Assembly: GCA_945901855.1 (NCBI GenBank)
Contig: CAMDLT010000013.1
Span: 3,421 to 67,420, forward strand
DNA length: 64,000 nt
Direction of reading: 5' to 3'
Source of the DNA: Asaia bogorensis
GTDB lineage: Bacteria > Pseudomonadota > Alphaproteobacteria > CACIAM-22H2
Below the pieces are notes generated by a model. It was given only the letters and a program-made list of their open reading frames with translations. It searched no databases and had not been told where the DNA came from. Shown here in pieces: positions 383 through 19,315 of the stretch (position 1 is its first letter; every line of letters starts with the position of its first letter). A program made the translations under genes and the position numbers.

Positions 383-1267
383 CTAAAGCGGTTTGAATTC
401 GACCGCCAGCCGGTAGCGCGCGGCTTCGCCCGGCGCCAAAACGCGCACGCCAGGCCGCCGTTCGAGGGCGCCGTCGCTCGTTTCGACCTCGGCCAGTCCC
501 TGCCACGGCTCGATGCACAAAAACGGCGCACCGGGTTTGGTCCAAATGCCAAGTTGCGGGCTGTCGGGAAAACGCACCTCCAGCCCCGGCTCGCCGGGCA
601 CGCCGGGCACGCCGAACCAAATTTTGCGCGAAGCAACGGTCTCGAAATGCAAGGCGCCGGCCTCGAACAACCTGTCGTCGAGGGCCAGCGTGCGCCCTGC
701 AACCGGCGTAGCGAATGTCGCGCGCGCCAGCAAGCCGGTCGTCGGATCCGCGTGCCGGATCGGGGCCGTTTCGTCGCGCTCGAAAACGCACACATAGCGC
801 TGGCGACGCTCGGCTGCCTGCGGCCACAAAAAGCCGGGATGGTAACCAAAGCAAAACGGCATCGCTGCCGTATTGCGGTTCTCGACCGTCGCCGCCATCG
901 CGAGCCCGCTTGCGCGCACTTTGGCCTCGATGCGCAGGGAAAAGCCAAATGGAAACATGGCGCGCGTCTGCGCATCGTCGGTTTGCTCGAACGACGCGTG
1001 CGCGGCTTCATGCCGGACGAGCGCAAACGGACGATCGCGCGCAAAGCCATGCGGCGTCATCTTGAACGTTTCTCCAGCAATCTTGATGGCGTTGCCGGGC
1101 GAACGCCCGATAACCGGAAACAAGATTGGCGCGCGCATGTCCCACCACGCCGGGTTGCCGTGCCAGAGTTGTTCTTGTCCGCGAAAACGCAGACGAACAA
1201 GTTCGGCGCCTGTGGGGGCAAACCAAGCTTCGACCTCTCCGTCCGCAATTTTCACGAGTTCAGTCAT
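383..1267 (-). CDS. aldose 1-epimerase (galactose mutarotase-like) family protein
   Basis: 294-aa ORF with aldose-epimerase-like motifs (GNPAWWDMRAPILFPVIGR, FCFGYHPGF, EPWQGLAE). Sits next to a sugar catabolic locus. Confidence 0.75.
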   Translation of the reverse strand: MTELVKIADGEVEAWFAPTGAELVRLRFRGQEQLWHGNPAWWDMRAPILFPVIGRSPGNAIKIAGETFKMTPHGFARDRPFALVRHEAAHASFEQTDDAQTRAMFPFGFSLRIEAKVRASGLAMAATVENRNTAAMPFCFGYHPGFLWPQAAERRQRYVCVFERDETAPIRHADPTTGLLARATFATPVAGRTLALDDRLFEAGALHFETVASRKIWFGVPGVPGEPGLEVRFPDSPQLGIWTKPGAPFLCIEPWQGLAEVETSDGALERRPGVRVLAPGEAARYRLAVEFKPL

Positions 1268-1395
1268 AACGCGATTTTTCCTTGTCTTGGATCGCCACTA
1301 TATGGATTTTCGAGCATAAAGCGCGACCAACAAGTATCCCGATACCGATAAATTGGTCGAGAACCCGGGATTGACATGGAACAAGCGTCCATAAT

Positions 1396-3171
1396 ATGAG
1401 ATTCGAACTGGCCAAAGAGCCGGATTCGTCCGAGGGAAAACGTCGTTTGAAGAAGCTGGCGATCATCGACAACTCGGAATCGGTTGTCGATCAGGGGCGC
1501 GAAATTCCGGGCGCGCAGGCGCTGCGACGGGGTCTGTCGCTGCTCGATCTTGTCGCCGAACACCCTAGTCGGCTGCGCTTCAGCGAAATTGCGGACCGCG
1601 CAGGGCTCACGCGCGCAACGGTCCATCGCATGCTAGCCACGCTTGTCGAGGCGGGGTTGCTGCGCATCGACGAACGCGACCAGACCTACAGCCTCGGATT
1701 TCGCCTGTTCGAAATGGCGCATCGCGTGTGGGACCAGTTCGATCTGCGCTCGGCGGCGGAACCTGAACTCGAGCGCTTGCGCGATTTGACGGGCGAAACG
1801 ATCCGCCTTGGCATATTGGACGCGGGCGACATTCTCTATATCGACCAGCGCGAGGCGGCCCAGGCGGTGCGTCTTGGCAATGGTGTCGGCTCGCGCACCG
1901 CAAGCTTCGCCAGCGGTGCCGGCAAAGCCATTCTGGCGCACCTAGACCCGCTGCATCGCGAACAACTGCTCAACGCGCTTGAGCTGCGCAAATTTACGCC
2001 CAACACCATCGCCTTGCGCGCCGAACTCGACCGCGAACTCGATCTCACCAAAGCGCGCGGCTACGCCGTGTCGCTCGAAGAACAGCATCTTGGCATCAAT
2101 TCGGTTGCCGCCCCCATCCTCGACCAGCGTGCGCGCTCGATCGGCGCCATCGCGATCGTCGGCCCGTCCTACCGGCTGTCGGCCGATCGGCTGCATGCGC
2201 TGGGCCGCGAGGTGATGGAAGCGGCGCGGCGCATCTCTGGCAATGCAGGACAAGTCGCGATGTCGATCCAAATCAACCCGCGACCGCTCGGCGCCGATCG
2301 CGACGATCTGGTTTCGGCCATTCCGACCACCGCGTTTTTGGGCGAGGGACCGGTTTGGCTTGCCGCCGAAAACCGTTTGATGCTGGTCGATATTTTGGCC
2401 CCCGCGATCGTCGTGGCAGACCCCCAGACGGGTAGCTATGTCTCGCACAAGATGCCGGAGCTGGTCGGCGCGGTCGTGCCGCGTCGTCGCGGCGGCTATG
2501 TCGCGGCGATGCAAAACGGCTTTAAAGCGATCGACCTTGCGGGCGGGCGTGTCACGACGATCGCGGCCCCCGAGGTCGACAGGCCCGGCAATCGCTTCAA
2601 CGACGCCAAGTGCGACCGACGCGGGCGTTTTTGGGCAGGCACGCTCGCGATCGACACCACGCCGGGGCACGGCGCGCTCTATCGTCTCGACCCCGACGGG
2701 CGCTGCCTCAAAATGGACAGCGGGTTTCATATCTCGAACGGGCTTGGCTGGAGCCCCGACGACAAGGTTTTTTACTTCACGGACTCGGGCGCCAAACGCA
2801 TCTACGCCTACGATTTCGACATCGAAAACGGCGAACTCGCCGGGCGGCGCGCGTTCGTACAGGTGCCCGACGGCGTCGGCACGCCCGACGGCCTTGCGGT
2901 CGATGCCGAGGGTTTTGTGTGGTCCGCGCATTGGGATGGCTGGTGCGTCACGCGCTACGACCCCGACGGCAAAGTCGAGCGCGTGATCAACCTGCCTGTG
3001 CCGCGCCCGACCAGCTGCGCGTTCGGCGGCGCCGACCTTGGCACGCTTTTCATCACCAGCGCGCGCATCCGCCTGTCGGCCCAGCAATTGGCCGAAGCGC
3101 CGCTGTCGGGCAGCGTGTTCGCGCTCAATGCGGGCGTGCGCGGTCTTGCCGAAGTCCCGTTCGCGGGCTGA
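1396..3171 (+). CDS. IclR-family transcriptional regulator fused in frame to an SMP-30/gluconolactonase/LRE-like (SGL) domain
   Basis: Residues 1-288 have an IclR HTH ([43 protein letters not shown]) and an IclR ligand-binding region. Residues 289-591 have SGL beta-propeller motifs ([72 protein letters not shown]). No stop codon separates the two parts. An internal ATG at 2261 is preceded by AGGAC. Confidence 0.7.
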
Positions 3172-3184
3172 AGGAAAAACGCCA

Positions 3185-4261
3185 ATGGCCAGCGTCACGC
3201 TCGACAACGTGCAAAAAGATTTCAACGGCACAAAAGTTCTGCACGGCATCGACCTGCAGATCGACGACGGCGAGTTCGTCGTATTTGTCGGCCCCTCGGG
3301 CTGCGGCAAATCGACCTTGCTGCGGCTGATCTGCGGGCTCGACGATGCAAGTGCCGGGCGCATCGCGATCGACGGCGAAATCGTCAACGACGTGCCGCCC
3401 GCCAAGCGCGGCATCGCGATGGTGTTCCAGTCCTACGCGCTCTATCCGCATATGAGCGTGGCCGACAATATGGGCTACGCGTTGCGGCTGGCGGGCACGC
3501 CGCGCGCCGAAATCGACCGCCGCGTCGGGGCGGCCGCCGCCATTTTGCGGCTCGATGCGCTGCTCGACCGCAAGCCGCGCCAGCTTTCCGGCGGCCAGCG
3601 CCAGCGCGTCGCGATCGGTCGCGCTATCGTGCGCGAACCGCGCATCTTTCTGTTCGACGAACCGCTCTCCAATCTCGATGCGGCCTTGCGCGTCGACATG
3701 CGCGCGGAGATCGCCGGGCTCAAGCGGCGCTTGGGCACCACGATGGTCTATGTCACGCACGACCAGATCGAAGCGATGACACTCGCCGACAAAATCGTTG
3801 TCATGCATGCCGGACGCGTCGAACAGGTCGGCTCGCCGCTCGATCTCTATCGCCGCCCGGCCAACCGGTTCGTCGCGACGTTCATCGGATCGCCGCGCAT
3901 GAATCTCGTTGCGGCCCGCAGCGACGGCACCGGCCGCGTGCAGCTCGCGGACCAAACGCCGGTTCCTTTGCGCGCGGCGGCGTCGCTGACGGGCCTCGAA
4001 ATCGGCTTGCGCGCCGAACATATCCGCATTCGCGCCGACAGCAAGACGGCCGACTTCGTCGGCACCGTGCAAACGCTCGAACATCACGGGGCGGATATCT
4101 TTGCCCATGTCGTGCTGCCGGGGTCGGATGCCAAACTTGTCGTGCGCCAGTCCGGCGACAGCACGCTGGCTATCGGCACGTCAGTGCCTCTAGCCGTCGA
4201 TTGGAGCCAAACGCATCTGTTTGGAAGCGACGGCACGCGCCTCGATCTGGTGGCGGCATGA
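3185..4261 (+). CDS. sugar ABC transporter ATP-binding protein (MalK/UgpC type)
   Basis: Walker [10 protein letters not shown], signature [14 protein letters not shown], Walker [14 protein letters not shown], and a C-terminal MalK-like regulatory domain. Start chosen at [10 protein letters not shown], 14 nt after the upstream stop. Confidence 0.9.
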
Positions 4262-5025
4262 GCGCGATTTATCCCGATCTAGCTGGCATGCCCGTGCTCG
4301 TAACCGGCGGGGCGTCGGGCATTGGCGAGGCGATCGTGGCCGCTTTTGCCGCGCAAAAAGCGCGCGTTGCCGCGATCGACATCGACGGCGACCGTCTGGC
4401 CAAAACGGCGGCCAGCATCGCGGCGGCGACGGGCACGACGATCGAAACCCATGCGGTCGATCTGCGCGACATCGCGGCCCTGCGCGCCGCCATCGCCGCA
4501 CTTGCCGCTCGCACCGGGCCGTTCAAGGCGCTGGTCAACAATGCGGGCGACGATGCGCGCCATCCTTGGCGGGACGTGACGCCCGAATTGTGGGACGACC
4601 GGTTTGCGGTCAATGCGCGCCACCAGTTTTTTGCGGCGCAAGCCGTTGCCCCCGCAATGGCCGATGCCGGCGGCGGCGCCATCGTCAATCTCGGCTCCAT
4701 CTCGTGGATGTTCGGCGCGGCCGGCCTCATCGCCTACACGACGGCAAAGTCCGCCATCATGGGGCTGACGAAGTCGCTGGCGCGCGAACTGGGCGGGCTT
4801 GGCATTCGCGTCAACTCGATCGCGCCCGGCTGGGTCTTGACCGAAAAGCAGATCGCGCGCGCCAACGCCGACGATCCCGCCAAGTTCAAGGCCTATCTCG
4901 ACCGGCAATGCCTCAAAGAACATCTGGCGCCCGACGACGTCGCCAGACTCGTGCTGTGGCTTGCCAGCGCAGAATCGCGCCGGTGCAGCGGGCAGACGTT
5001 CGTGCTCGACGCGGGTGTCGTGTGA
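4258..5025 (+). CDS. SDR-family oxidoreductase (probable sugar or sugar-acid dehydrogenase)
   Basis: [11 protein letters not shown] glycine-rich NAD(P) motif, NNAG, and the YxxxK catalytic pair ([16 protein letters not shown]). The start overlaps the upstream stop as ATGA. Confidence 0.85.
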
Positions 5026-5115: not shown

Positions 5116-6399
5116 ATGCTCGATCTCAATCGCCGCCAGTTCGGCGCTCTTGCCGCGGCGGGCGTCGCCAGTGCCGCCGTGCGGCCCGCGCGCGCGCAAG
5201 CAAGCCAGATGAACTTCATGAGCTTTACCTTCGCCGAAGAACCCAACAAACCGTTTGTCGTAAGTCTGATCGACACGTTCAAGAGTTCGAGCGGCGTGAG
5301 CGTCGAGCCGATCGCGACCGCCTGGGGCGACACCCAGCGCAACGTCATGCTGCGCCAGCGCTCGCGCACGCTGCCCGACAGCGTGCAGTTGCAGGACCGC
5401 TGGCTTCCCTCGATGGCGTCCTTGCCCGAGATCGTCGATCTCGACGCGCTGATCGGTCGGCCTGCGATCGAAGCGGCTTTGGCGCCCACGGCCTTGGGCC
5501 TGGGTCGCGTCGGCGGCAAACAGATCGGCATTCCGCTGATCTCCGGCTCGGTCGGCATGGTCGCCAATTCCGAAGTGCTGGCCAAAGCGGGCGTGGCCAA
5601 GATTCCCGAAACGCTGGCCGAATTCCGCGCGGCTTTGATTGCCGTGCGCGACCGCGTGCCCAACTCGGTGCCGTTCGCTATGGCCACCAAAAATCCCAAT
5701 TCCATCCCGCTCGACGTGCTGCTGATCTATTGGGCATTCGGCGCGCGCATGATCGACGAAACGGGCGAAGTGCATGTCGCCTCGGCCGAAGGCAAGGCGG
5801 CCATGGACTTCATCGCGGGCCTCATGAAGGACCGGCTCGTCGCACCGGAAATCGACCGACCCGATTCGCGGCGCCTGTTTGCGCAAGGGAATGCTGCGTT
5901 CTATTTCGACCCGCCTGTCGCCCGCACGTTCGCGCGCAGCTTCTCGGGGCGCGGGCCCGCGGCCGACGCGTTTGTCGTGCCGATGAAAACGCCGGTTCTA
6001 AAGGCAGGCGACGTGCCGCGCTCGGTCGAGTGGGGCCATATCGTGACGCTGTTCAACAGTCCGGCCAATCGCGACCGCAACGGCCCGGGTGCGAAGTGGA
6101 TTTCGCACATCCTGTCCGATGCCGTGCAGACGACATTCCCGCTGCAGGTTGGCGGCCTGCCCGTCACCAAATCGGGGCGTGCCGCACCTGTCGTGCAGAA
6201 CGACCCGTTCCTCAAAGCTTGGGCCGAGGCGACCGTCGCTACCGGCAAACACGAGATCGGCATTTGGGACAACTCGCCCGAATTGTCGACCATCTTGAGC
6301 GAGGAAACGCAAGCCGCCTTGCTCGGCCAGAAAACCGCCAACGCCGCCGCCGATTCCATGCAGAGCCGCATGAAAGCGTCGATGGCCAAGCGCGGCTGA
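5116..6399 (+). CDS. ABC transporter substrate-binding protein (family 1 / CUT1, sugar-type) with Tat signal
   Basis: N-terminal MLDLNRRQFGALAAAGVASAAVRPARA twin-arginine signal. About 43 kDa periplasmic protein, followed by two MalFG-type permeases. Confidence 0.8.
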   Translation: MLDLNRRQFGALAAAGVASAAVRPARAQASQMNFMSFTFAEEPNKPFVVSLIDTFKSSSGVSVEPIATAWGDTQRNVMLRQRSRTLPDSVQLQDRWLPSMASLPEIVDLDALIGRPAIEAALAPTALGLGRVGGKQIGIPLISGSVGMVANSEVLAKAGVAKIPETLAEFRAALIAVRDRVPNSVPFAMATKNPNSIPLDVLLIYWAFGARMIDETGEVHVASAEGKAAMDFIAGLMKDRLVAPEIDRPDSRRLFAQGNAAFYFDPPVARTFARSFSGRGPAADAFVVPMKTPVLKAGDVPRSVEWGHIVTLFNSPANRDRNGPGAKWISHILSDAVQTTFPLQVGGLPVTKSGRAAPVVQNDPFLKAWAEATVATGKHEIGIWDNSPELSTILSEETQAALLGQKTANAAADSMQSRMKASMAKRG

Positions 6400-6401
6400 C
6401 G

Positions 6402-7337
6402 GTGGCTCGCACGACCACCTTGGAGGAACCGCCTCTTCGCATCTCCCCCGCCGCACGGCGGGGGGGATTGAAGGCGGGCGAACGGCGCATCGGCTGGCTG
6501 TTCTTGGTGCCGGCATTGGTCGCCTTTACCGCCGTGATCGCATTGCCGTTTGTGCGCGCGCTTGGCATCGCGTTCACGCGAAACGATCTGCGCACGCCGG
6601 TGCCGCGTTTCATCGGCTTCGACAATTTCCGGACGATCCTCGCCTCGCCCGAGATCATGGGATCGTTCTTCACGACCGCCATCTATGTCACGGCGGCGAC
6701 CGCCTTTACGCTCGTGCTGGGTCTGGCATGGGCGCTTATTTTGAACCAGCCGTTTCGCGGCCGCACGGCGTTGCGCGCCGCCTCGCTGATTCCCTGGGTG
6801 CTGCCCAGCACTGTTACGGCCTTTGTCTGGGGCTGGATTTTCAACAGCCGTTACGGCGTGCTCAATGCGGCCCTGATCGAAATCGGCGCCATCGACAGCC
6901 AGCAAGCCTGGCTTTCGGACGCGACAGGCGCCATGGTCGCCGTTGTCATAACCAAAGTTTGGTTCTCGATCCCGCTCTTCATGTCGTTTTTTCTGGCAGG
7001 CCTGCAAGGGCTCGATCGCGAGCAGATCGACGCCGCGCGCGTGGACGGTGCGGGCAATTTCGCGATCCTGCGCGACCATATCCTGCCGCATCTGCGCCCC
7101 GTGACGCTGGTGGTCGTCGTCCTCGGCTTGATCGGCAATTTGCAGCATTTCGACACGATCTTCGCCTTGACCAGCGGTGGCCCCGTGCGCTCGACGACCG
7201 TGCTGTCGATCGAAGTGTTTAGGCGCGCGTTCGACCAATGGGACATCGGGCTTGCGTCGGCGATCGGACTTTTGTGGGTGCTGACGATCCTGCCGGCCGC
7301 CTATTTTTATATTCGCCACCTGCTGAAAGGCGTCTAG
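6402..7337 (+). CDS. ABC transporter permease (MalF/UgpA-like)
   Basis: Multi-TM protein with the EAA-type loop (IDAARVDGAGNFAILRDHILP). Start taken as the GTG immediately after the binding-protein stop; the real start is somewhere in 6402-6480. Confidence 0.75.
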   Translation: MARTTTLEEPPLRISPAARRGGLKAGERRIGWLFLVPALVAFTAVIALPFVRALGIAFTRNDLRTPVPRFIGFDNFRTILASPEIMGSFFTTAIYVTAATAFTLVLGLAWALILNQPFRGRTALRAASLIPWVLPSTVTAFVWGWIFNSRYGVLNAALIEIGAIDSQQAWLSDATGAMVAVVITKVWFSIPLFMSFFLAGLQGLDREQIDAARVDGAGNFAILRDHILPHLRPVTLVVVVLGLIGNLQHFDTIFALTSGGPVRSTTVLSIEVFRRAFDQWDIGLASAIGLLWVLTILPAAYFYIRHLLKGV

Positions 7338-7341
7338 GGAC

Positions 7342-8178
7342 ATGCTGGATCTCTCGTCTCTCAGGGCCCGCACGGTTTTTGCGATCGCCGCCGCTTTGAT
7401 CGGATTTTTCCTGTTCTTCCCGATCTACTGGCTCGCCATCTCGGCCTTCAAGGGCAATGCCGAGCTCTATCGCATCGTGCCGACCTTGTGGCCGCAAGAC
7501 CCGACATTGGCGAATTTTGTGACTGCTTTCACGCGCGGAAATCTGCTGCTGCATCTCAAGAACAGTCTGTTCGTCTCGGGTAGTGCGGCCGCGATCAATT
7601 CGATCCTCGCGATGTACGCGGGCTATTCGTTCGCCAAATTCCGCTATCCGGGACGGCGCGCGGTGATGCTGCTGCTGCTGTCGGCGCAGGTCTTTCCGTT
7701 CGGCCTGCTGCTGATCAGCCTCTATCCGATGATGACCGATCTCGGTCTTATCGACACGCGGCCGGGCCTGATCTTGTCCTATATCGTCTTCGCTTTGCCG
7801 GTTTCGACCTACATGCTTTACAGCTATTTCAGCCAGGTGCCGAGCGAGCTCATCGAGGCCGCGCGCGCCGACGGGGCGAGCGAGCTGCGCATTTTCCACA
7901 CGATCGTTCTGCCGGTTTCGATCCCGGCCGTCGTGACGGTGTTCCTCTACGGCTTCATGTGGTCGTGGAACGATCTGCTCTACGCGATGACGCTGATCGT
8001 CTCGGAAGACAAACGCACGGTCGGGCCGGGCCTGCTGCTGAGCTATCTCAACGAAACCAATGCCGATTGGGGCGGTGCCATGGCCGCCTCGCTGGTCGCG
8101 TCGCTGCCGATCGTTCTGGCATTCGGATTTTTGCAGCGTTGGTTCATCGAAGGCGTCACAGCGGGGTCGGTAAAATGA
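7342..8178 (+). CDS. ABC transporter permease (MalG/UgpE-like)
   Basis: 278 aa, six predicted TM segments, EAA motif (IEAARADGASELRIFHTIVLP). Confidence 0.85.
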   Translation: MLDLSSLRARTVFAIAAALIGFFLFFPIYWLAISAFKGNAELYRIVPTLWPQDPTLANFVTAFTRGNLLLHLKNSLFVSGSAAAINSILAMYAGYSFAKFRYPGRRAVMLLLLSAQVFPFGLLLISLYPMMTDLGLIDTRPGLILSYIVFALPVSTYMLYSYFSQVPSELIEAARADGASELRIFHTIVLPVSIPAVVTVFLYGFMWSWNDLLYAMTLIVSEDKRTVGPGLLLSYLNETNADWGGAMAASLVASLPIVLAFGFLQRWFIEGVTAGSVK

Positions 8179-9092
8179 GTATGCTCGAAGGCGTTTTTCC
8201 AGTTCTGCCGACGCCGTTTGCGCCCGACGGCACGATCGACCGAACTGCCTTTGCGGGACTCGTCGACTTCGTCGTCGGCGCGGGCGCGGACGGCGTCGTC
8301 TTCCCAGGCATGGCAAGCGAGGTCGAAAAACTCGCGCCGGACGAGCGCGCATTGCTCGTCGCCGACCTTGGCAAGCATATCGGCGGCCGCGTGCCGATCA
8401 TTGTGGGCGCCAGCGCGGCGACGCCCGATGCCGCCGCCGCGTTTGCCGAAGAAGGACGCAAGATCGGCGCAGTTGCCGCAATGATCATGGCGCCCGCCGC
8501 GTGCGGTGCCGACATTCCAAGCCATATCGCGTTCTACAGCGCGGTCGGCGCCAAAACCGGCATCAAACTGATGCTGCAAAACGCCCCGTCGCCGATGGGG
8601 GCAGGCCTGTCGCCAGACGCGGTCGCCCAGATCGTGCTCGCCGTGCCCGCAATTCGCTACGTCAAGGAGGAGACCCTGCCCTGCGGCCAGCACGTGACGA
8701 AGATTCTGGCGCTCGCGGGACATCGGTTGGACGGCGTGTTCGGCGGCGCCGGGGCGCGTTACGTCATCGACGAGCTGGCGCGCGGCGCGCGCGGCACCAT
8801 GCCCGCCAGCGAACTTGCGGACGTGCATGTGGCGTTGATGCGCGCGTGGCGCGACAGCGACAAAAAGCGCGCGCGCGCGCTCTATTCGCGCACGCTGCCG
8901 CTGCTGCTTTTCCAGGCGATCTTCCGCGTGCGCGCGACCAAGACGCTGCTGCGCATGCGCGGCCTGCTCGACTGCGATTTCGCGCGCGCCGCCGGCCCCG
9001 AACTCGACGCCAACGACCGCCTAGAGTTCGCGGCACTCGCCGCCGAAGCCGCCGATCTGTTCGAACGCCATCCTTTGCAGCGAGACATCTGA
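8175..9092 (+). CDS. dihydrodipicolinate synthase (DapA/NAL) family lyase, probable 2-keto-3-deoxy sugar-acid aldolase or dehydratase
   Basis: Starts MSMLEGVFPVLPTPFAPDGTIDRTAF (the N-terminal fold signature of the DHDPS family), with GTMP and YS motifs. ATGA overlap with the upstream permease. Confidence 0.8.
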   Translation: MSMLEGVFPVLPTPFAPDGTIDRTAFAGLVDFVVGAGADGVVFPGMASEVEKLAPDERALLVADLGKHIGGRVPIIVGASAATPDAAAAFAEEGRKIGAVAAMIMAPAACGADIPSHIAFYSAVGAKTGIKLMLQNAPSPMGAGLSPDAVAQIVLAVPAIRYVKEETLPCGQHVTKILALAGHRLDGVFGGAGARYVIDELARGARGTMPASELADVHVALMRAWRDSDKKRARALYSRTLPLLLFQAIFRVRATKTLLRMRGLLDCDFARAAGPELDANDRLEFAALAAEAADLFERHPLQRDI

Positions 9093-9093
9093 C

Positions 9094-10269
9094 ATGCCCC
9101 AACTCGACGCGATCGCCAAAGTCGAAAGCTTCATCGTTTCGATCCCGCGCGACGTGCCCTATCTGGGCCCGCTGCGCGAGGGCGAGCATATCAACGAAAA
9201 AGGCTATCTGATCCGCAAGGGCAACAAGTCGATCTATCCGTCGACCGACATGTCGGTGTTGATCAAGATTACGGGCGAAAGCGGCAAGGTCGGCTGGGGC
9301 GAGACCTACGGCATCGTCGCGCCGCACGCGGTCAAGGCGATCGTCGACGACGTGCTGGCACCCGTGATGCGCGGGCGCGATCCAGCCGACCCCGTCGTGC
9401 TGCACGAAGATCTCTACGACCTCATGCGCGTGCGCGGGTTTTTCGGCGGCTACTATGTCGACAGTCTCGCGGGCGTGGATATCGCCGTGTGGGATCTCTA
9501 CGGCAAACTTGCGGGACTGCCGCTGGCCAATCTTTTGGGCGGCAAACGGCGCACATCCATTCCGGCCTACGTGTCGGGGTTGCCGAAGGCAACCTTGCAG
9601 GAGCGCTGCGACCTAGCCCGCGAATGGGTCGCCAAGGGTTTCAAGGGCATCAAGTTCGCCGCCGCCATGTCGGACGACGGCATCGTCAAAGAGATGGCGG
9701 CGCTGCGCGAGGCCGTGGGCCCCGCCATCCATCTGATGGTCGATCTGCACTGGAAGTTCGAGGCAGCCGAAGCGATCCGCCTGATCCGCAAGCTCGAGGC
9801 TTACGATCTTTATTTCGCCGAAGCGCCGTGCGACCCCGAAGACATGGAAGGCCAGATCGCCGTCGCGCGCGGCATCGGCACCACGCTGGCGCTCGGCGAG
9901 GAGTGGCGCACCGTGTTCGAATACCGGCCGCGCTTCGTGGGCCGCGCGATGGGCGTCATCCAGCCCGAGATGGGCCATACCGGCGTGACCGAGTTCATCC
10001 AGATCGGGCATCTGGCGCATGCGTTCCACGTCGCGACGATCCCGCACGCGTCGATCGGCATCGGCGTGTTCATGGCCGCAAGCCTGCACGCGACGGCGGC
10101 GCTGAAGCGCGTGCCCTACCACGAGTACCAGCATTCGATCTTCGACAAAAATCTGCGCTACGTCACGGGCGATATGTCGTGCGGCGGCGGCGAATACACG
10201 CTTCCAAGCGGTTTCGGGCATGGCGTGGAGCCTGCCGACGCGGTCTTCAACCATATCGTCAAGGGCTAG
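9094..10269 (+). CDS. enolase-superfamily enzyme (mandelate racemase / muconate lactonizing enzyme family), probable sugar-acid dehydratase or cycloisomerase
   Basis: 391 aa with MR/MLE-like capping and barrel regions (AGVDIAVWDLYGK, MVDLHWKF, EAPCDPEDMEG, GIGTTLALGEEW). Lies between two DHDPS-family genes. Confidence 0.8.
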   Translation: MPQLDAIAKVESFIVSIPRDVPYLGPLREGEHINEKGYLIRKGNKSIYPSTDMSVLIKITGESGKVGWGETYGIVAPHAVKAIVDDVLAPVMRGRDPADPVVLHEDLYDLMRVRGFFGGYYVDSLAGVDIAVWDLYGKLAGLPLANLLGGKRRTSIPAYVSGLPKATLQERCDLAREWVAKGFKGIKFAAAMSDDGIVKEMAALREAVGPAIHLMVDLHWKFEAAEAIRLIRKLEAYDLYFAEAPCDPEDMEGQIAVARGIGTTLALGEEWRTVFEYRPRFVGRAMGVIQPEMGHTGVTEFIQIGHLAHAFHVATIPHASIGIGVFMAASLHATAALKRVPYHEYQHSIFDKNLRYVTGDMSCGGGEYTLPSGFGHGVEPADAVFNHIVKG

Positions 10270-10274
10270 GCGCC

Positions 10275-11210
10275 ATGGCCGTTGCGCATCGCTTTTCTGG
10301 AATCTACCCGATCCTCTATTGCTTCTACGGCGCGGACGGCAAGGTCGATGCGGGCGCCATGCGCCGCCAAGTCGAACACTGCATCGAGGCAGGCGCGCAC
10401 GGCATCGCCGTCCTGGGGCTTGTTACCGAAGTCCACAAACTCGACACCGCCGAGCGGCGCGCCCTCGTCGAGACCGTCGGCGCCGCCATCGGCGGGCGCG
10501 TTCCCTATGCCGTCACGGTCGGCGAACCGACGGTCGAGGGCCAGCTCGAATTTGCGCGCATGGCGCGCGCCAACGGCGCGGACTGGGCGATCTTGCAACC
10601 GCCGCCGGGCAAAGGCATTGATGCCGCCGCCCTGCAGCGCCATTTCGGCACGGTCGCCGATGCGCTCGACTTTCCGGTTGCGATCCAAAACAACCCCGTC
10701 AATCTCGAAAGCTCGCTCTCGCCGACCGATCTTGCCGCCCTTGTCGCCCGCCACGACAACATAGCGCTGCTGAAGGCGGAGGGCTGGTCGGTCGACATCG
10801 CGACGACGCTTGCCGCGCTCGACGGCAAGGTCGACGCATTTGGCGGCCATGGCGGTCTGGAATTTTTGTCGTTGCTGCGCAGCGGCGGCGCCGGGCTCAT
10901 CCCGGCGCCCGATTGCCTCGCGATCCAAGTCGCGCTCTACGAAGCATTCCGGGCCGGCACGCCCGAAGCGCTTGCGCACGCCGAGCGCCTGCATCGCGAG
11001 ATCCTGCCGCTGATCGTGTTCATGACGCGCGGCGTACCCGGCATTCTTTGCTACGGCAAACGCTTGATGGCACGCCGTCTTGGCATATCGGCCGTCTTCG
11101 ACCGCGCCCCGGCCTTGACGCCCACCGCCTTCGGCCTGGCCGAAATGGAGAAACTTCTGGCACACGCCAGCAGCATCGAAAAAACACTGCCAAAAATGGC
11201 CAACGCCTAA
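10275..11210 (+). CDS. dihydrodipicolinate synthase family protein (second paralog)
   Basis: 311 aa, MAVAHRFSGIYPILYCFYGADGKVDAGAMRRQVEHCIEAGAHGIAVLGLVTE. Start at ATG 10275, 6 nt after the upstream stop. The part of ORF 9489..11210 before this start overlaps the enolase gene out of frame. Confidence 0.75.
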   Translation: MAVAHRFSGIYPILYCFYGADGKVDAGAMRRQVEHCIEAGAHGIAVLGLVTEVHKLDTAERRALVETVGAAIGGRVPYAVTVGEPTVEGQLEFARMARANGADWAILQPPPGKGIDAAALQRHFGTVADALDFPVAIQNNPVNLESSLSPTDLAALVARHDNIALLKAEGWSVDIATTLAALDGKVDAFGGHGGLEFLSLLRSGGAGLIPAPDCLAIQVALYEAFRAGTPEALAHAERLHREILPLIVFMTRGVPGILCYGKRLMARRLGISAVFDRAPALTPTAFGLAEMEKLLAHASSIEKTLPKMANA

Positions 11211-11225
11211 AAAAGGGAGACAACC

Positions 11226-12467
11226 ATGGATCGCCGGACCGTTCTGAAAGGTGCCCTCGCCCTCGCCGCCGCCCCCGCGCCGGTCTTCGCCCAAGGCGCT
11301 GCCGTCACGCTCGATTTCCCAAGCTGGCAAGCCGAAGAACCCGGCGTATCGGGCTGGTGGCGCGCGCTGATTGCCGAATTCGAAACGGCGAATCCTGGCG
11401 CCAAGGTCAATCTCTACTCGATCCCCTTCACCCAATATGTGCAGCAGTTGACGGTACGGTTCGCCGGCAACAACGCGCCCGACATCGTGCATCTACCGAC
11501 GCGCAACTTCGCCGCATTCGCATCGCAAGGCTGGCTCGCGCCGATGGACGAGCGGCTGGCGCGCACCGACATCCTGCAGAACTGGACGCCGCTGCAGTCG
11601 GAGATGAAGTGGGAGGGCAAGACCCAGGGCCTGCTGCTGATGGGCTACGGAAGCTTGCTCTACTACAACGAAAAGCTTCTGGCCGAAGCGGGCGTGGGCG
11701 TACCGACCACGCCAGCCGAATGGCTCAACGCCATCGAAAAAACGACCAAACGCGATCAAGGCATCTTCGGACTCGTCGCGACATCGATCGAACATCCCAA
11801 TCTGGTCGTCGAGGCGGGCACGTGGGTGATGGGTCAGGGGCTCGATTGGTTGCGCCAAGGCCGCTACGATTTCACCAATCCGCAGCTGGTCGCGGCTGTC
11901 GAACAATATCGCCGGTCGATGCGTTTCGCCCCGCCCGGCATGAACTCGACGACCGGGCGCCAGCTTTTCATCGACGGCAAGGCGACGTTCCTGCGCGACG
12001 GGCCATGGGTTTGGGCGTTCGTCGCGCGCGCACCAGAAGCGACGCGTCCGCACCTGAAAGTCGCGCGCGTGCCCTTCCCCAAGGAAACCGGCGGCACGTC
12101 GAACAGCCTGCACATGCCCGCAAACCTCGCGGCCAACAAGCGGGAACTGGTGTGGAAGTTTGTCGAGCTTGCAGCCTCCCCCAAATGGCAGTCCGAATAC
12201 GTGCTGCAATCCGCTTCGCCAGCACCCCGCCGAGGGGCGCTCGCGGCCGATGCCGCGCAGCGCCTGCCGCATCTGAAACTCGTCATGGATGCCGCCGCCA
12301 GCGCCACGTCGGTGTTCCCCACGCATCCGAGCCTGATGGAAAGCTACAACGAATACGCCTCGATCTTCGGGCGTTCGATGATGCGGCTGATCTCGACCGA
12401 GGAGCCGACCGCGACCGTGATGGCCAATCTGCAGCGCGAGCTCGAGCGCGCCGTGCCGCTGCGGTGA
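11226..12467 (+). CDS. ABC transporter substrate-binding protein (family 1 / CUT1) with Tat signal
   Basis: MDRRTVLKGALALAAAPAPVFAQG twin-arginine signal, 413 aa, followed by two permeases. Confidence 0.8.
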   Translation: MDRRTVLKGALALAAAPAPVFAQGAAVTLDFPSWQAEEPGVSGWWRALIAEFETANPGAKVNLYSIPFTQYVQQLTVRFAGNNAPDIVHLPTRNFAAFASQGWLAPMDERLARTDILQNWTPLQSEMKWEGKTQGLLLMGYGSLLYYNEKLLAEAGVGVPTTPAEWLNAIEKTTKRDQGIFGLVATSIEHPNLVVEAGTWVMGQGLDWLRQGRYDFTNPQLVAAVEQYRRSMRFAPPGMNSTTGRQLFIDGKATFLRDGPWVWAFVARAPEATRPHLKVARVPFPKETGGTSNSLHMPANLAANKRELVWKFVELAASPKWQSEYVLQSASPAPRRGALAADAAQRLPHLKLVMDAAASATSVFPTHPSLMESYNEYASIFGRSMMRLISTEEPTATVMANLQRELERAVPLR

Positions 12468-13342
12468 GACGGCAGACCGCCATCGCCTACGGGCTGCTGG
12501 CGCCTGCATTTGTGCTGGTCGCGGCGCTGATCGTCTATCCGCTCTACACGGTGGCCGAAACCAGCCTGCGACAGGGCCGCTCGCCCAACATCGCCAGGCT
12601 CGACCGGCTGCCGCTCGGGTTCGACAACTATCTGCGTGCACTGGCGGACGAGCAGGTCTGGCACTCGGCGGGCGTCACCGTGCTGTACGCGCTGGGAACC
12701 ATCGGGCCGGGCTTTGCGATCGGTCTTGGTTTCGCCCTGCTGCTCAACCGCGAGTTTCCGGGACGGCGCTACGTGCGCAGCTTGATGCTGCTCCCGTGGG
12801 CCGTTCCCGGCGTGGTCGCGGCGATCGCGTTTGTATGGATGTTCGATGCGTCTTATGGCGTCGTCAATTCGGTGCTACGGCGCCTGGGGCTTGCCACCGA
12901 CGACATCGCCTGGTTCGTCGACGGGGACACGGCGCTTGTTGCCGTGCTGCTGCCGACAATCTGGAAATGCTTTCCGTTTTTCACGCTGACCTTGCTGGCG
13001 GCGCTGCAATCGGTGCCCCAAGCGCTCTACGAGGCGGCGCGCATCGACGGTGCCGGCGCATCCGCCGAATTCCGCTACGTTACGTGGCCCGGCATTCGCG
13101 GTGCGGCCGTGTTGGCGGTGATTCTGCAAACGCTTTGGGTGGTCAAGGATTTCGATCTGGTGTTCGCCACGACCGGGGGCGGACCGTCGCGTGCCACGCA
13201 GACGCTGTCGCTGTTCGTCTACGAAGAAGCGTTCCAGTTTTTCCGCATGGGCTACGCGTCGGCGGTGGGCGTCATGATGTTGCTGGTGTGCGCGCTGCTC
13301 GCGTTCGTGGCGCTGCGTTGGGGCAAGCGGGAGTTCCATTGA
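12464..13342 (+). CDS. ABC transporter permease (MalF-like)
   Basis: TM-rich C-terminal 293 aa of ORF 10913..13342, EAA loop (YEAARIDGAGASAEFRYVTWP). Start GTG 12464 overlaps the binding-protein stop (GTGA). The upstream 1.5 kb of that ORF is antisense noise. Confidence 0.75.
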   Translation: MRRQTAIAYGLLAPAFVLVAALIVYPLYTVAETSLRQGRSPNIARLDRLPLGFDNYLRALADEQVWHSAGVTVLYALGTIGPGFAIGLGFALLLNREFPGRRYVRSLMLLPWAVPGVVAAIAFVWMFDASYGVVNSVLRRLGLATDDIAWFVDGDTALVAVLLPTIWKCFPFFTLTLLAALQSVPQALYEAARIDGAGASAEFRYVTWPGIRGAAVLAVILQTLWVVKDFDLVFATTGGGPSRATQTLSLFVYEEAFQFFRMGYASAVGVMMLLVCALLAFVALRWGKREFH

Positions 13343-14175
13343 TGGGCCGGAAGCAAGACGGACTATGGGTTCTGGCGCTGTGCGCCACTTTGGCGGCGAT
13401 CGTGCTGTTTCCAGTCTATTGGATTGGCATGACCTCGATCTTGCCGACGGAGATCATGCTGTCGCGCAATCCACCGCTGCTGCCGCCATTGTCGCGCGTC
13501 ACGTTCGACGCCTATCCGGAAGTCTTCGCGCGCAAGCCAATGCTGCTGTGGCTCGCCAACAGCGTGACCGTCGTGCTCGGCACGCTTGCCGTCACGATCG
13601 TGGCGGCGGCGATGGCCGGCTACAGCCTGTCGCGCTATAGCACCAAAGCGCAGCAAGCGATGGGCTTCGGGCTGCTCGCTAGCAAGATGCTGCCGGGCTC
13701 GCTCGTGATCATCCCGTTCTTCATCATGTTCTCGAAAGTCGGGCTGATCGAAACCAAGCTCGGCGTGATCCTGGCCAATTCCGCGATCGCGGTTCCGTTC
13801 GCCACCTGGCTGCTCAAGGGATTTTTCGACGCGATCCCAAGGGAACTCGAGCAAGCAGCCTTGATCGACGGCTGCAACGAATGGCAGGCCTTCCGCCATA
13901 TCGTGCTGCCGATCGCGCGGCCCGGCATCGCGGCATCGGCAACCTATGTCGCGATCGTGACGTGGGCCGATCTTGTGTTTGCAAGAACCTTGATGAGCAA
14001 ACCCGAGAACTGGCTCGTCACGGTCGGGCTGCAGTCTTTCATGGGCGAGTATTCGGTCGAATGGTCGGCCTTGATGGCTGCCGCCACGATCTCGCTCGTT
14101 CCCATGCTGATCCTGTTTTTCCTGCTCGAGCCTTTTCTCGTCAAAGGCATGACGCAAGGCTCGCTCGCTAACTGA
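13342..14175 (+). CDS. ABC transporter permease (MalG-like)
   Basis: Starts MGRKQDGLWVLALCATLAAIVLFPVYW, EAA loop (EQAALIDGCNEWQAFRHIVLP). ATGA overlap with the upstream permease. No ATPase gene follows, so it probably shares the 3185..4261 ATPase. Confidence 0.8.
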   Translation: MGRKQDGLWVLALCATLAAIVLFPVYWIGMTSILPTEIMLSRNPPLLPPLSRVTFDAYPEVFARKPMLLWLANSVTVVLGTLAVTIVAAAMAGYSLSRYSTKAQQAMGFGLLASKMLPGSLVIIPFFIMFSKVGLIETKLGVILANSAIAVPFATWLLKGFFDAIPRELEQAALIDGCNEWQAFRHIVLPIARPGIAASATYVAIVTWADLVFARTLMSKPENWLVTVGLQSFMGEYSVEWSALMAAATISLVPMLILFFLLEPFLVKGMTQGSLAN

Positions 14176-18388: not shown

Positions 18389-19315
18389 ATGGAAGCCTCA
18401 ATGCTCGAAGATATCGTCCAAAACCCCAATCCGTATCCGATCGTTGCCGCGATGGCGTACGACGATATCTGGAAGCTGTGCGAACAGGCACGGGACCTTG
18501 CCTGGGATCCGGCCAAGCTCGATTTCTCCGACCTCAAGCGCGCCGACTTGCCCGACGAAGTGCGCAAGGCCGGCGCCGAATGGTGGTCGCTGCGCGCGTG
18601 GATGGAACACGGCGCTACGCCCTACGGGGCCGAGCGTCTGCGCGATGCGATCTTCGGCCACCAGCCGTTCGAAGTGAAGCAGCACGTTGTCAATTTCATC
18701 GCCGAAGAGCTGCGCCACCACGAAGCGAGCTTTCGCATCGCCAACGCGCTCGACGCCTACCAGCCGTCGCCGCAATCCGACTATTTCATGAAGATCATCC
18801 CGAAGTTCCACAACGAGAAGGAAGAGAAGCAAATGAGCTTCTTTGCCGGCCTTGCCGTAAACACGCTGTTCGAGCAGCTGTCGGGCGAACTGCTGCAGGC
18901 GCGCTACGAAAACGCGCGCTACGAATCGATCCGCGAAGCATGCCGCTTGATCCTTCGCGACGAGGCGCGCCACATTCAATTCGGTCGCATCGTCATGCGC
19001 CGCTTCTTCGGCGAATTGTCGGACTTCGACAAAGAGATGCTCGGCAAGAAGTTCGCCAAGAAACTGCGCGGCTCGCTGCTGAACGGCGTTTATGCGGTCG
19101 TCAATTTGCCGAGCGAAGAGCGCAAGCGCTCCTCGCGCGCGCGCCAGCTTGCCGCCGAGCACGGTCTTGGCGCAACGCACCCCGACCATGAAGTCGCGAT
19201 CATCGCCGACGCGCTGAAGAAGATCCGCGCGGACGTGGCGCCCTACAACGTGCCGATCCCGCCGATCCCGGAAATCGAAGGACCCGCAACGGGCCCTTCG
19301 GCGAAGGCGGCATGA
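18389..19315 (+). CDS. ferritin-like di-iron-carboxylate superfamily protein (putative oxygenase / oxidase)
   Basis: 308 aa with two E...ExxH motifs about 90 aa apart (FIAEELRHHEA and ILRDEARHIQFG), typical of ferritin-like di-iron proteins. No signal peptide. Confidence 0.55.
   Translation: MEASMLEDIVQNPNPYPIVAAMAYDDIWKLCEQARDLAWDPAKLDFSDLKRADLPDEVRKAGAEWWSLRAWMEHGATPYGAERLRDAIFGHQPFEVKQHVVNFIAEELRHHEASFRIANALDAYQPSPQSDYFMKIIPKFHNEKEEKQMSFFAGLAVNTLFEQLSGELLQARYENARYESIREACRLILRDEARHIQFGRIVMRRFFGELSDFDKEMLGKKFAKKLRGSLLNGVYAVVNLPSEERKRSSRARQLAAEHGLGATHPDHEVAIIADALKKIRADVAPYNVPIPPIPEIEGPATGPSAKAA

What the first reader, a model, noticed from the sequence alone, without database searches (positions are those of the whole stretch)
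1396..3171. IclR regulator fused in frame to an SMP-30/gluconolactonase beta-propeller domain
IclR proteins are normally about 250-280 aa, an HTH plus their own effector-binding domain. Here a complete IclR (aa 1-288) continues without any stop into a complete 303-aa SGL lactonase-like propeller. The propeller has its own ATG (2261) and an AGGAC RBS. The result is either a one-component regulator that carries the pathway's lactonase or lactone-binding module, or two genes merged by loss of a stop. Either way the lactonase step of the adjacent sugar-oxidation pathway is physically tied to its regulator, which I do not know as a described architecture.
Basis: partly seen in the sequence, partly recalled or inferred. 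Interest (0 to 1): 0.6.

Follow-up and report, generated by a model that had tools for sequence, protein, structure and literature searches.

The report
Sugar-operon repressor fused to its lactonase
This gene really does encode one protein that joins an IclR-type DNA-binding regulator to a working-looking sugar-lactone hydrolase; the same fusion is conserved in hundreds of soil and water bacteria, always next to the same sugar-oxidation operon, yet no paper I could find describes it.

Summary
Window 1396-3171 is one uninterrupted frame with a complete IclR regulator (HTH_IclR plus IclR_C) followed by a complete SMP-30/gluconolactonase six-bladed propeller. It is not an artefact. At least 587 relatives were found in species genomes. 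The 80 best are all fused single ORFs from Alpha-, Beta- and Gammaproteobacteria, down to 40% identity, with linker length fixed to within one residue. A further 185 plasmid or chromid records carry it, including Sinorhizobium pSymA and Agrobacterium pAt.

The lactonase metal ligands and substrate residues are invariant or nearly so. The operon has no other lactonase. It encodes a XylB-like dehydrogenase, an enolase-type dehydratase, two DHDPS-type enzymes and ABC importers. A palindrome built on the TGGAAC half-site sits upstream of the gene across clades; here it fills the -35/-10 spacer.

Most likely this is a bifunctional repressor and pathway lactonase.

Corrections: the true start is probably TTG 1447 (574 aa), and the internal ATG is at 2260-2262.

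The internal ATG with its AGGA shows comparative synonymous-site support as a second start site in several clades, but not in all.

Public annotation pipelines record the architecture. I found no experimental description. I class it as a new variant of a known kind, of moderate interest.

The parts
1371..1397 (+). Promoter-like element with embedded operator: TTGACA (1371-1376), palindrome TGGAACAAGCGTCCA (1377-1391), TAATAT (1392-1397)
   Evidence: The same TTGACA-N15-TAATAT layout, with a TG[G/A]AAC-N3-xTxTCC palindrome in the spacer, is conserved in L001, L005, L006, L007 and L039, and partly in L024 (operator half-sites and AT-rich element, no clear TTGACA). The related perfect palindrome TGGAACTNAGTTCCA lies 50-95 nt upstream of the fusion gene in about 27 alpha loci. 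Beta loci carry GTTyC-N7-GGAAC. Promoter function and binding by this protein are inferred.
1432..1449 (+). Probable true ribosome-binding site GAGGGA (1432-1437) and start codon TTG (1447-1449)
   Evidence: Most orthologs begin at the residue aligned to window L18. L001 has GGGGGA-N-GTG at the same place.
1396..3171 (+). The fused ORF as reported (591 aa); the likely CDS is 1447-3171 (574 aa)
1519..1671 (+). HTH_IclR winged-helix DNA-binding domain (aa 42-92)
   Evidence: Pfam PF09339, 9.3e-18. T75, H77 and R78 are invariant in 33 orthologs.
1726..2238 (+). IclR_C effector-binding domain (aa 111-281)
   Evidence: Pfam PF01614, 2.7e-41, full length. Fold TM 0.84 to 2ia2_D.
2239..2307 (+). Conserved inter-domain linker (aa 282-304, [23 protein letters not shown])
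   Evidence: Length fixed to +/-1 residue in 80 loci. AF2 hinge with pLDDT below 50 at aa 286-291.
2247..2262 (+). Candidate internal translation start: AGGA (2247-2250) and ATG codon 289 (2260-2262)
   Evidence: Codon 289 is ATG, GTG or TTG in 70 of 74 distinct junctions. Gly285 uses the rare GGA codon in 33-38% of cases against a 7.5% background, the highest of 32-33 conserved Gly columns. An SD core lies upstream in 31-38% of loci against 4-5% for other Met codons. The site is absent in the Agrobacterium/Sinorhizobium clade, which has Ile289.
2308..3168 (+). SMP-30/gluconolactonase (SGL) six-bladed beta-propeller (aa 305-591). Catalytic residues: E317 (2344-2346), R400/N402/D403 (2593-2604), N448 (2737-2739), D498 (2887-2889)
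   Evidence: Pfam PF08450, 2.9e-90. Residues map onto human SMP30 E18, R101, N103, D104, N154 and D204 and are invariant or at least 90% conserved. TM 0.92-0.94 to SMP30 and XylC.
383..1267 (-). Divergent aldose 1-epimerase (mutarotase) gene
   Evidence: Pfam PF01263, 2.5e-19. Conserved only in L001.
3185..4261 (+). ABC transporter ATPase (UgpC/MalK type)
   Evidence: Present in 51 of 80 loci.
4258..5025 (+). SDR sugar 1-dehydrogenase; best NCBIfam model is D-xylose 1-dehydrogenase XylB, below its cut-off
   Evidence: 279 bits against a 400-bit cut-off. Present in 47 of 80 loci.
5116..8178 (+). CUT1-type ABC importer: substrate-binding protein (5116-6399) and two permeases (about 6402-7337, 7342-8178)
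8175..9092 (+). DHDPS-family enzyme, closest to L-2-keto-3-deoxyarabonate dehydratase
   Evidence: PDB 3fkk, 9e-34. Present in 56 of 80 loci.
9094..10269 (+). Enolase-superfamily acid-sugar dehydratase
   Evidence: MR_MLE_N and MR_MLE_C. PDB 2ppg and 4h1z at about 1e-146. Present in 51 of 80 loci.
10269..11210 (+). Second DHDPS-family gene
   Evidence: Pfam PF00701, 5e-21

Best explanation
The gene encodes a genuine, anciently fused bifunctional protein. The N-terminal IclR module (winged HTH plus effector domain) binds palindromes built on the TGGAAC half-site at the operon promoter. In this window the site fills the -35/-10 spacer, so the protein most likely acts as a repressor that also regulates its own gene. 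The C-terminal SMP-30-type propeller is the operon's only lactonase. It hydrolyses the aldonolactone made by the adjacent SDR sugar dehydrogenase to the aldonate. The enolase-type and DHDPS-type enzymes encoded downstream then process the aldonate, in a Weimberg/Dahms-like oxidative route fed by the CUT1 ABC importer. A pathway intermediate, probably the aldonate or its 2-keto-3-deoxy product, is presumed to release the repressor. Shown here: the fusion, the completeness of the domains, conservation of the catalytic residues, the conserved gene context and the conserved upstream palindromes. Inferred: DNA binding by this protein, repression rather than activation, the effector, enzymatic activity and the sugar. 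In addition, in this window and several clades, an internal start at codon 289 probably also yields free lactonase.
For: Single ORF with three complete Pfam domains. More than 120 fused clusters at 62-98% identity and about 43 fused clusters at 50% clustering, down to 32% identity. All 80 best genome loci are fused, across three proteobacterial classes, and 185 plasmid records carry it. Junction length is fixed to +/-1 residue. The identities of the two halves co-vary, r = 0.92. SMP30 metal ligands and substrate residues are invariant or at least 90% conserved, and are kept in Agrobacterium and Sinorhizobium copies. Propeller TM 0.92-0.94 to SMP30 and XylC; IclR half TM 0.84. Context: DHDPS in 56, enolase in 51, ABC ATPase in 51 and SDR in 47 of 80 loci. 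No second SGL hit was found in 76 of 80 loci. Operators: TGGAACTNAGTTCCA upstream in about 27 alpha loci, a window-clade variant within TTGACA-N15-TAATAT, and GTTyC-N7-GGAAC in beta loci. The last matches the GTT-11-AAC sugar/sugar-acid motif class of IclR regulators (PMC8222616). In Betaproteobacteria the gene is transcribed divergently from the operon, as regulators usually are.
Against: There is no experimental evidence for either activity. The window's own palindrome is degenerate: 4 mismatches to the alpha consensus, and no match at 3 or fewer mismatches anywhere in the window. The -35/-10 spacing is 15 nt, shorter than optimal, and the generic promoter scan did not call it. AF2 does not fix the relative orientation of the two halves (pTM 0.56), so any structural coupling is unproven. 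The sugar is unidentified: the SDR and enolase proteins fall below all NCBIfam equivalog cut-offs. In Agrobacterium pAt the gene sits late in the operon rather than in a regulator-like position.
Confidence: 0.7

Rival explanations
1. The propeller is a sensor only. It binds the lactone or sugar as an extra ligand-sensing module for the IclR regulator and does not contribute meaningful catalysis.
For: It is fused in cis to a transcription factor, and the linker is conserved and of fixed length, which would suit signal transmission. Non-catalytic enzyme-fold sensor domains fused to DNA-binding domains are known, for example GntR/MocR and ROK regulators (my own knowledge).
Against: Every catalytic or metal residue of SMP30 is invariant or at least 90% conserved down to about 47% identity. 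Sensor-only domains usually lose such residues. The operon otherwise lacks the lactonase step. The IclR_C effector domain is itself complete.
Confidence: 0.12
2. One gene yields two products. As well as the ~62 kDa fusion, ribosomes start at codon 289 (ATG 2260, AGGA 2247-2250) and make a free ~33 kDa lactonase, which uncouples enzyme dosage from repressor dosage. This complements the main explanation rather than replacing it.
For: Codon 289 is start-capable in 70 of 74 distinct junctions. Gly285 is GGA in 33-38% of cases against a 7.5% background, top of all conserved Gly columns; the runner-up is the last codon, which sits in the next gene's SD region. An SD core is present at 31-38% of loci against 4-5% at other Met codons (Fisher p = 1e-8 on 52 de-duplicated representatives). 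All four representatives with GTG or TTG have an SD, and the three with non-start codons have none. M289 lies in a low-confidence hinge, not in a folded core.
Against: About two thirds of loci lack a canonical SD there. The Agrobacterium/Sinorhizobium clade has Ile289. The tests are not fully corrected for phylogeny. Met could instead be conserved for an oligomer contact. The ATG and SD could be a relic of the ancestral lactonase gene start.
Confidence: 0.35
3. Artefact or pseudo-fusion: two adjacent genes merged in this assembly by a sequencing error or a recent loss of a stop codon.
For: One genome (L081) has the two halves as overlapping separate ORFs. Genuine standalone lactonases 62% identical to the propeller exist.
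Against: Hundreds of independent assemblies, including complete genomes, carry the same uninterrupted ORF with the same junction. L081 is explained by a net 2-nt loss within the conserved linker, so it is derived from the fusion.
Confidence: 0.01
4. The IclR half is vestigial and the protein is in effect only an enzyme with an N-terminal appendage.
For: NCBI names the protein only as a lactonase. In Agrobacterium pAt the gene is embedded late in the operon and its start overlaps the upstream gene's stop.
Against: The HTH and effector domains score as strongly as in standalone IclR proteins. Recognition-helix residues are invariant. A matching palindromic motif co-occurs with the gene across classes.
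Confidence: 0.04

Closest known systems
IclR-family regulators of sugar and sugar-acid catabolism (e.g. KdgR; the GTT-11-AAC motif group of Suvorova & Gelfand 2021, PMC8222616)
   Same: N-terminal HTH_IclR plus IclR_C effector domain. A palindromic operator next to a sugar-acid catabolic operon. Placed first in the operon or divergent from it.
   Different: About 290 extra C-terminal residues form a complete enzyme domain. Typical members are 250-280 aa with no catalytic module. No NCBIfam IclR equivalog cut-off is reached; the best is BhcR at 198 bits against a 350-bit cut-off.
SMP-30/regucalcin gluconolactonase and Caulobacter crescentus xylonolactonase XylC (PDB 3g4e, 4gnc, 7plb)
   Same: Six-bladed propeller, 36-38% identity, TM 0.92-0.94, identical metal-ligand triad and Arg/Asn/Asp substrate residues. 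Operon with an XylB-like dehydrogenase.
   Different: Those enzymes are standalone ~290-300 aa proteins. Here the propeller is the C-terminal half of a transcription factor. Substrate is unknown.
Bifunctional enzyme-regulators ('trigger enzymes': PutA, BirA, NadR; from my own knowledge)
   Same: One polypeptide combines a DNA-binding domain with an enzyme of the pathway it controls.
   Different: Different DNA-binding family and different enzyme fold. In those proteins the enzyme domain is itself the sensor, whereas here a separate, complete IclR effector domain is also present. No coupling has been demonstrated.
526-aa 'putative transcriptional regulator' with two IclR-like stretches (PDB 5w1e)
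   Same: Shows that the IclR scaffold tolerates a large C-terminal extension.
   Different: That extension is a second IclR-like stretch, not an enzyme.

Membership tests
IclR family of transcriptional regulators | N-terminal winged helix-turn-helix of the IclR type | tested here: met
   PF09339, 64 bits against a 22-bit cut-off, aa 42-92. T75, H77 and R78 invariant.
IclR family of transcriptional regulators | C-terminal IclR effector-binding domain | tested here: met
   PF01614, 141.5 bits against a 24-bit cut-off, profile 3-173 of 174. Fold TM up to 0.84 to full-length IclR structures.
IclR family of transcriptional regulators | Two-domain protein of about 250-280 aa with nothing after the effector domain | tested here: not met
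   574-591 aa. About 290 aa of SGL propeller follow the effector domain.
IclR family of transcriptional regulators | Binds a palindromic operator near the regulated promoter | tested here: inconclusive
   Conserved palindromes built on TGGAAC lie upstream of the gene across clades. Binding was not tested, and the window's copy is degenerate.
SMP-30/gluconolactonase/LRE (SGL) family | Full-length match to the SGL profile above the gathering score | tested here: met
   PF08450, 302.6 bits against a 26.3-bit cut-off, profile 1-246 of 246.
SMP-30/gluconolactonase/LRE (SGL) family | Six-bladed beta-propeller fold | tested here: met
   AF2 model, pLDDT mostly above 85 over aa 305-578. TM 0.92-0.94, rmsd 1.6-1.7 A to 3g4e, 4gnc and 7plb.
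SMP-30/gluconolactonase/LRE (SGL) family | Divalent-metal ligands Glu18, Asn154 and Asp204, and Arg101/Asn103 (human SMP30 numbering) | tested here: met
   E317, N448, D498, R400 and N402 align to them. They are invariant or at least 90% conserved in 33 orthologs and kept in Agrobacterium and Sinorhizobium.
SMP-30/gluconolactonase/LRE (SGL) family | Lactone hydrolase activity | not testable with these tools
   Needs an enzyme assay.
Xylonolactonase XylC orthologs (Weimberg pathway) | Orthology to C. crescentus XylC and co-occurrence with XylB, XylD and XylX | tested here: inconclusive
   38% identity to 7plb. The SDR scores 279 bits on the XylB model, below the 400-bit cut-off. The dehydratase is enolase-type rather than the XylD type.
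Trigger enzymes (enzyme-regulator bifunctional proteins) | The same polypeptide both catalyses a pathway step and controls transcription of that pathway | not testable with these tools
   Both modules look intact. Neither activity was measured.

The most novel reading that the evidence does not exclude
The gene is a dual-output device. Full-length protein is a repressor whose own propeller makes the aldonate effector right beside its IclR pocket, so regulation depends on catalysis (substrate-processing sensing). A conserved internal start at codon 289 makes free lactonase from the same mRNA, so enzyme dosage can rise on induction without a matching rise in repressor dosage.
Probability: 0.25. 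Interest if true: 0.75.

Novelty: new variant of a known kind. Interest (0 to 1): 0.55.

Why it matters
IclR regulators are among the commonest controllers of sugar-acid and aromatic catabolism, and they are treated as two-domain proteins. A large, ancient subfamily that carries the pathway's own lactonase would add a new class of enzyme-regulator fusion. It occurs in model organisms (Sinorhizobium meliloti pSymA, Agrobacterium fabrum pAt, Variovorax, Paraburkholderia), where it can be tested directly.

It also matters for annotation. NCBI labels these proteins only as lactonases, so regulon reconstructions miss the regulator.

The operon pairs the fusion with enolase-superfamily proteins that have solved structures (2ppg, 4h1z, 2nql) deposited only under generic names. 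Working out the regulator's effector could therefore reveal the substrate of an unassigned oxidative sugar pathway.

The possible internal start is a clean test case for nested genes in bacteria.

Tried and rejected
Eight full-text literature searches found no paper on this architecture: IclR+SMP-30+fusion; IclR+lactonase+fused; xylonolactonase+IclR; PDB and UniProt ids 2PPG, 4H1Z, 2NQL and Q92ZS5; IclR+gluconolactonase; trigger enzyme terms; Atu544-546 locus tags; IclR+propeller. The two papers opened for IclR and lactonase terms did not mention it either.

The generic sigma-70 scan found no promoter in the 1268-1446 intergenic region. It requires a 16-18 nt spacer, and the conserved element has 15.

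The alpha-clade palindrome TGGAACTNAGTTCCA has no match at 3 or fewer mismatches anywhere in the window. The window's operator is a diverged variant recognisable only by alignment with its own clade.

The S. meliloti 2011 pSymA record carries no annotation in the plasmid collection, so no locus tag could be obtained.

The substrate could not be assigned. The SDR, enolase and DHDPS proteins are all below NCBIfam equivalog cut-offs.

I considered that the standalone hits P0144 and P0139 represent an ancestral split state. P0144 is a frameshifted fusion. P0139 is a true standalone lactonase on a 1.4-kb contig with no informative context.

AF2 on the monomer did not resolve inter-domain packing (pTM 0.56).
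Full report
OBSERVATION. Window 1396-3171 (+) is a single open frame of 591 codons. Against Pfam it gives three complete domains in order: HTH_IclR (aa 42-92, 9e-18), IclR_C (aa 111-281, 2.7e-41, profile 3-173 of 174) and SGL, the SMP-30/gluconolactonase/LRE region (aa 315-557, 2.9e-90, profile 1-246 of 246). By sequence the N-terminal half matches solved IclR regulators (1mkm, 6e-32). The C-terminal half matches regucalcin/SMP30 (5.8e-54) and the Caulobacter xylonolactonase entry 7plb (2e-47). An AlphaFold model built on 33 orthologs gives two confident domains. The IclR part ends in a long helix at 263-288. A short low-confidence hinge follows at 286-291. A propeller runs from about 305 to 578. 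Foldseek places the propeller on SMP30 and XylC at TM 0.92-0.94 and the N-terminal half on full-length IclR structures at TM up to 0.84. No solved chain covers both halves.

TWO CORRECTIONS. The internal ATG is codon 289 at nt 2260-2262, and AGGAC is at 2247-2251. The annotated ATG 1396 is probably not the start. Most orthologs begin at the residue aligned to L18, which is TTG 1447-1449 with GAGGGA 9 nt upstream. ATG 1396 also lies within a TAATAT element that is conserved as non-coding DNA in related loci. AF2 gives residues 1-37 pLDDT below 30. The likely product is 574 aa.

NOT AN ARTEFACT. The large protein database returned more than 120 clusters (90% clustering) with the same architecture and lengths of 539-605 aa (most 565-597), at 62-98% identity. 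They come from Bosea, Microvirga, Devosia, Rhizobium, Neorhizobium, Prosthecomicrobium, Inquilinaceae and others. An exhaustive HMMER scan of 1.84 billion 50%-identity representatives listed about 43 fused clusters among the top 150, down to 32% identity. A scan of one genome per species found at least 587 relatives. The 80 best loci are all fused, and 79 of them read as one uninterrupted ORF spanning both domains (L039 is broken in the IclR half). They come from Alphaproteobacteria (Hyphomicrobiales, Rhodospirillales, Rhodobacterales, Sphingomonas), Betaproteobacteria (Paraburkholderia, Variovorax, Rhodoferax, Polaromonas, Ramlibacter and others) and Gammaproteobacteria (Stenotrophomonas, Steroidobacter). 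The closest is a Telmatospirillum MAG at 86% identity. The plasmid collection holds 185 records, 138 of them full length, including Sinorhizobium pSymA and Agrobacterium pAt. Across the 80 loci the junction never varies by more than one residue in length. The identities of the two halves to the window protein co-vary (r = 0.92). This is what a single old fusion inherited as a unit would give. The only split copy I found (L081) has a net 2-nt loss a few codons after position 289 inside the conserved linker, so it derives from the fusion. Genuine standalone lactonases 62% identical to the propeller also exist.

BOTH HALVES LOOK FUNCTIONAL. The alignment to human SMP30 maps its metal ligands E18, N154 and D204 and its substrate residues R101, N103 and D104 onto E317, N448, D498, R400, N402 and D403. 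In 33 orthologs all are invariant except D498, which is at least 90% conserved and is Asn in two sequences. The 47%-identical Agrobacterium and Sinorhizobium copies keep them too. In the HTH, T75, H77 and R78 are invariant.

GENE CONTEXT. The gene is followed by:
- an UgpC/MalK-type ABC ATPase (3185-4261);
- an SDR whose best NCBIfam model is D-xylose 1-dehydrogenase XylB, at 279 bits and below the 400-bit cut-off (4258-5025);
- a CUT1 binding protein and two permeases (5116-8178);
- a DHDPS-family protein closest to L-2-keto-3-deoxyarabonate dehydratase, 3fkk at 9e-34 (8175-9092);
- an enolase-superfamily dehydratase nearly identical in family to the structural-genomics entries 2ppg, 4h1z and 2nql, which are deposited only under generic names (9094-10269);
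- a second DHDPS paralog (10269-11210).

An aldose 1-epimerase gene is divergent upstream. This is an oxidative, non-phosphorylative sugar route: dehydrogenase, lactonase, dehydratase, then a second dehydratase or aldolase. The fused propeller is its only lactonase. Homologs of these neighbours accompany the fusion in most loci long enough to show them: DHDPS in 56, enolase in 51, ABC ATPase in 51 and SDR in 47 of 80. Only four loci have a second SGL, and there it is a second fused paralog. In Alphaproteobacteria the fusion is usually the first gene of the operon. In Betaproteobacteria it is transcribed divergently from the operon. In Agrobacterium pAt it sits late in the operon.

OPERATOR. 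A de novo search for inverted repeats upstream of the gene found TGGAACTNAGTTCCA. It is perfect or has one mismatch in about 27 alpha loci from several orders, 50-95 nt before the start. Beta loci carry GTTyC-N7-GGAAC, built from the same half-site and often present twice in the divergent intergenic region. This corresponds to the GTT-11-AAC motif class that Suvorova and Gelfand associate with sugar and sugar-acid regulons of IclR proteins (PMC8222616). The window's own clade shares the layout TTGACA, then TG[G/A]AAC-N3-xTxTCC, then TAATAT, then a further GGAAC-like half-site. In the window this is TTGACA 1371-1376, TGGAACAAGCGTCCA 1377-1391 and TAATAT 1392-1397. An operator inside the -35/-10 spacer suggests repression and, because the gene is first in the operon, autoregulation. 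This is inference. The window's palindrome is degenerate, the spacer is only 15 nt, and the generic promoter scan did not call it.

INTERNAL START. Codon 289 is ATG in 64, GTG in 5 and TTG in 1 of 74 distinct junctions. The Gly four codons upstream uses the rare codon GGA in 36-38% of loci, against 7.5% for all Gly codons in these genes and 2-9% for Gly followed by Glu, Gly or Gln. This creates GGAG, GGAGG or AGGA 10-13 nt before codon 289. It is the most GGA-rich of 32 conserved Gly columns. The runner-up is the very last codon, which lies in the ribosome-binding region of the next gene and so serves as an internal positive control. After collapsing to 52 representatives below 85% identity, an SD core precedes codon 289 in 31% of them, against 4.3% for other Met codons (Fisher p = 1e-8). 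All four lineages with GTG or TTG have an SD, and the three with a non-start codon have none. Residue 289 lies in the model's flexible hinge. Against this, most loci have no canonical SD, the Agrobacterium/Sinorhizobium clade has Ile289, and the statistics are only crudely corrected for relatedness. I rate internal initiation in this window's gene at about one in three.

COMPARISON WITH KNOWN SYSTEMS. The protein passes the domain and fold tests for both the IclR and SGL families. It fails the usual IclR definition of a ~250-280 aa two-domain protein. It reaches no NCBIfam equivalog cut-off; the best is BhcR at 198 bits against 350. Functionally it belongs with bifunctional enzyme-regulators such as PutA, BirA and NadR (my own knowledge). 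It differs from them in also keeping a complete dedicated effector domain. Automated pipelines already record the architecture under two names. None of eight full-text searches found a paper that describes or tests it.

VERDICT. This is a real, ancient and widespread fusion of an IclR regulator to the lactonase of the oxidative sugar operon it most likely represses. I class it as a new variant of a known kind and of moderate interest. The sugar, the effector, the sign of regulation, the two activities and the second translation start all remain to be shown experimentally.

Noticed in passing
L043, L044, L066, L054 (about 7930-11690 in each locus): Some Paraburkholderia and betaproteobacterial genomes carry two fused IclR-SGL paralogs side by side, transcribed divergently.
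   Followed up: no
L081 4001-5729: One genome (GCA_046292825.1) has the fusion split into overlapping IclR (295 aa) and SGL (298 aa) ORFs. The cause is a net 2-nt loss just after codon 289. Both halves are intact, and the operon context is the same.
   Followed up: partly
window 3166-3187: The last codon of the fusion (Gly591) is the second most GGA-rich conserved Gly column across orthologs. This is consistent with it forming part of the Shine-Dalgarno of the downstream ABC ATPase gene, whose ATG is at 3185.
   Followed up: partly
window 10269-14175: A second DHDPS-family gene directly follows the enolase gene, and a second CUT1-type ABC transporter follows that (SBP 11226-12467, then a permease region up to 14175). 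The cluster may therefore handle more than one sugar.
   Followed up: no
window 15311-17185 and 19312-20292: A fused DctQ-DctM TRAP transporter permease (624 aa) and a TctC-family tripartite tricarboxylate receptor lie further downstream.
   Followed up: no
L083 1712-11439 (Agrobacterium fabrum pAt): In Agrobacterium the order is DHDPS, MR/MLE, SBP, permeases, UgpC, an NAD(P) oxidoreductase, the fusion, then an SDR. The fusion's start overlaps the stop of the upstream gene, and a 2-dehydro-3-deoxygalactonokinase gene is divergent. This hints at a hexonate-type route in that clade.
   Followed up: no
L006 (assembly titled Halotia wernerae) and L028 (Desulfarculaceae MAG): Fused genes at 70% and 52% identity appear in assemblies labelled as a cyanobacterium and a deltaproteobacterial lineage. 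These are probably contaminating or binned alphaproteobacterial contigs, or horizontal transfer.
   Followed up: no
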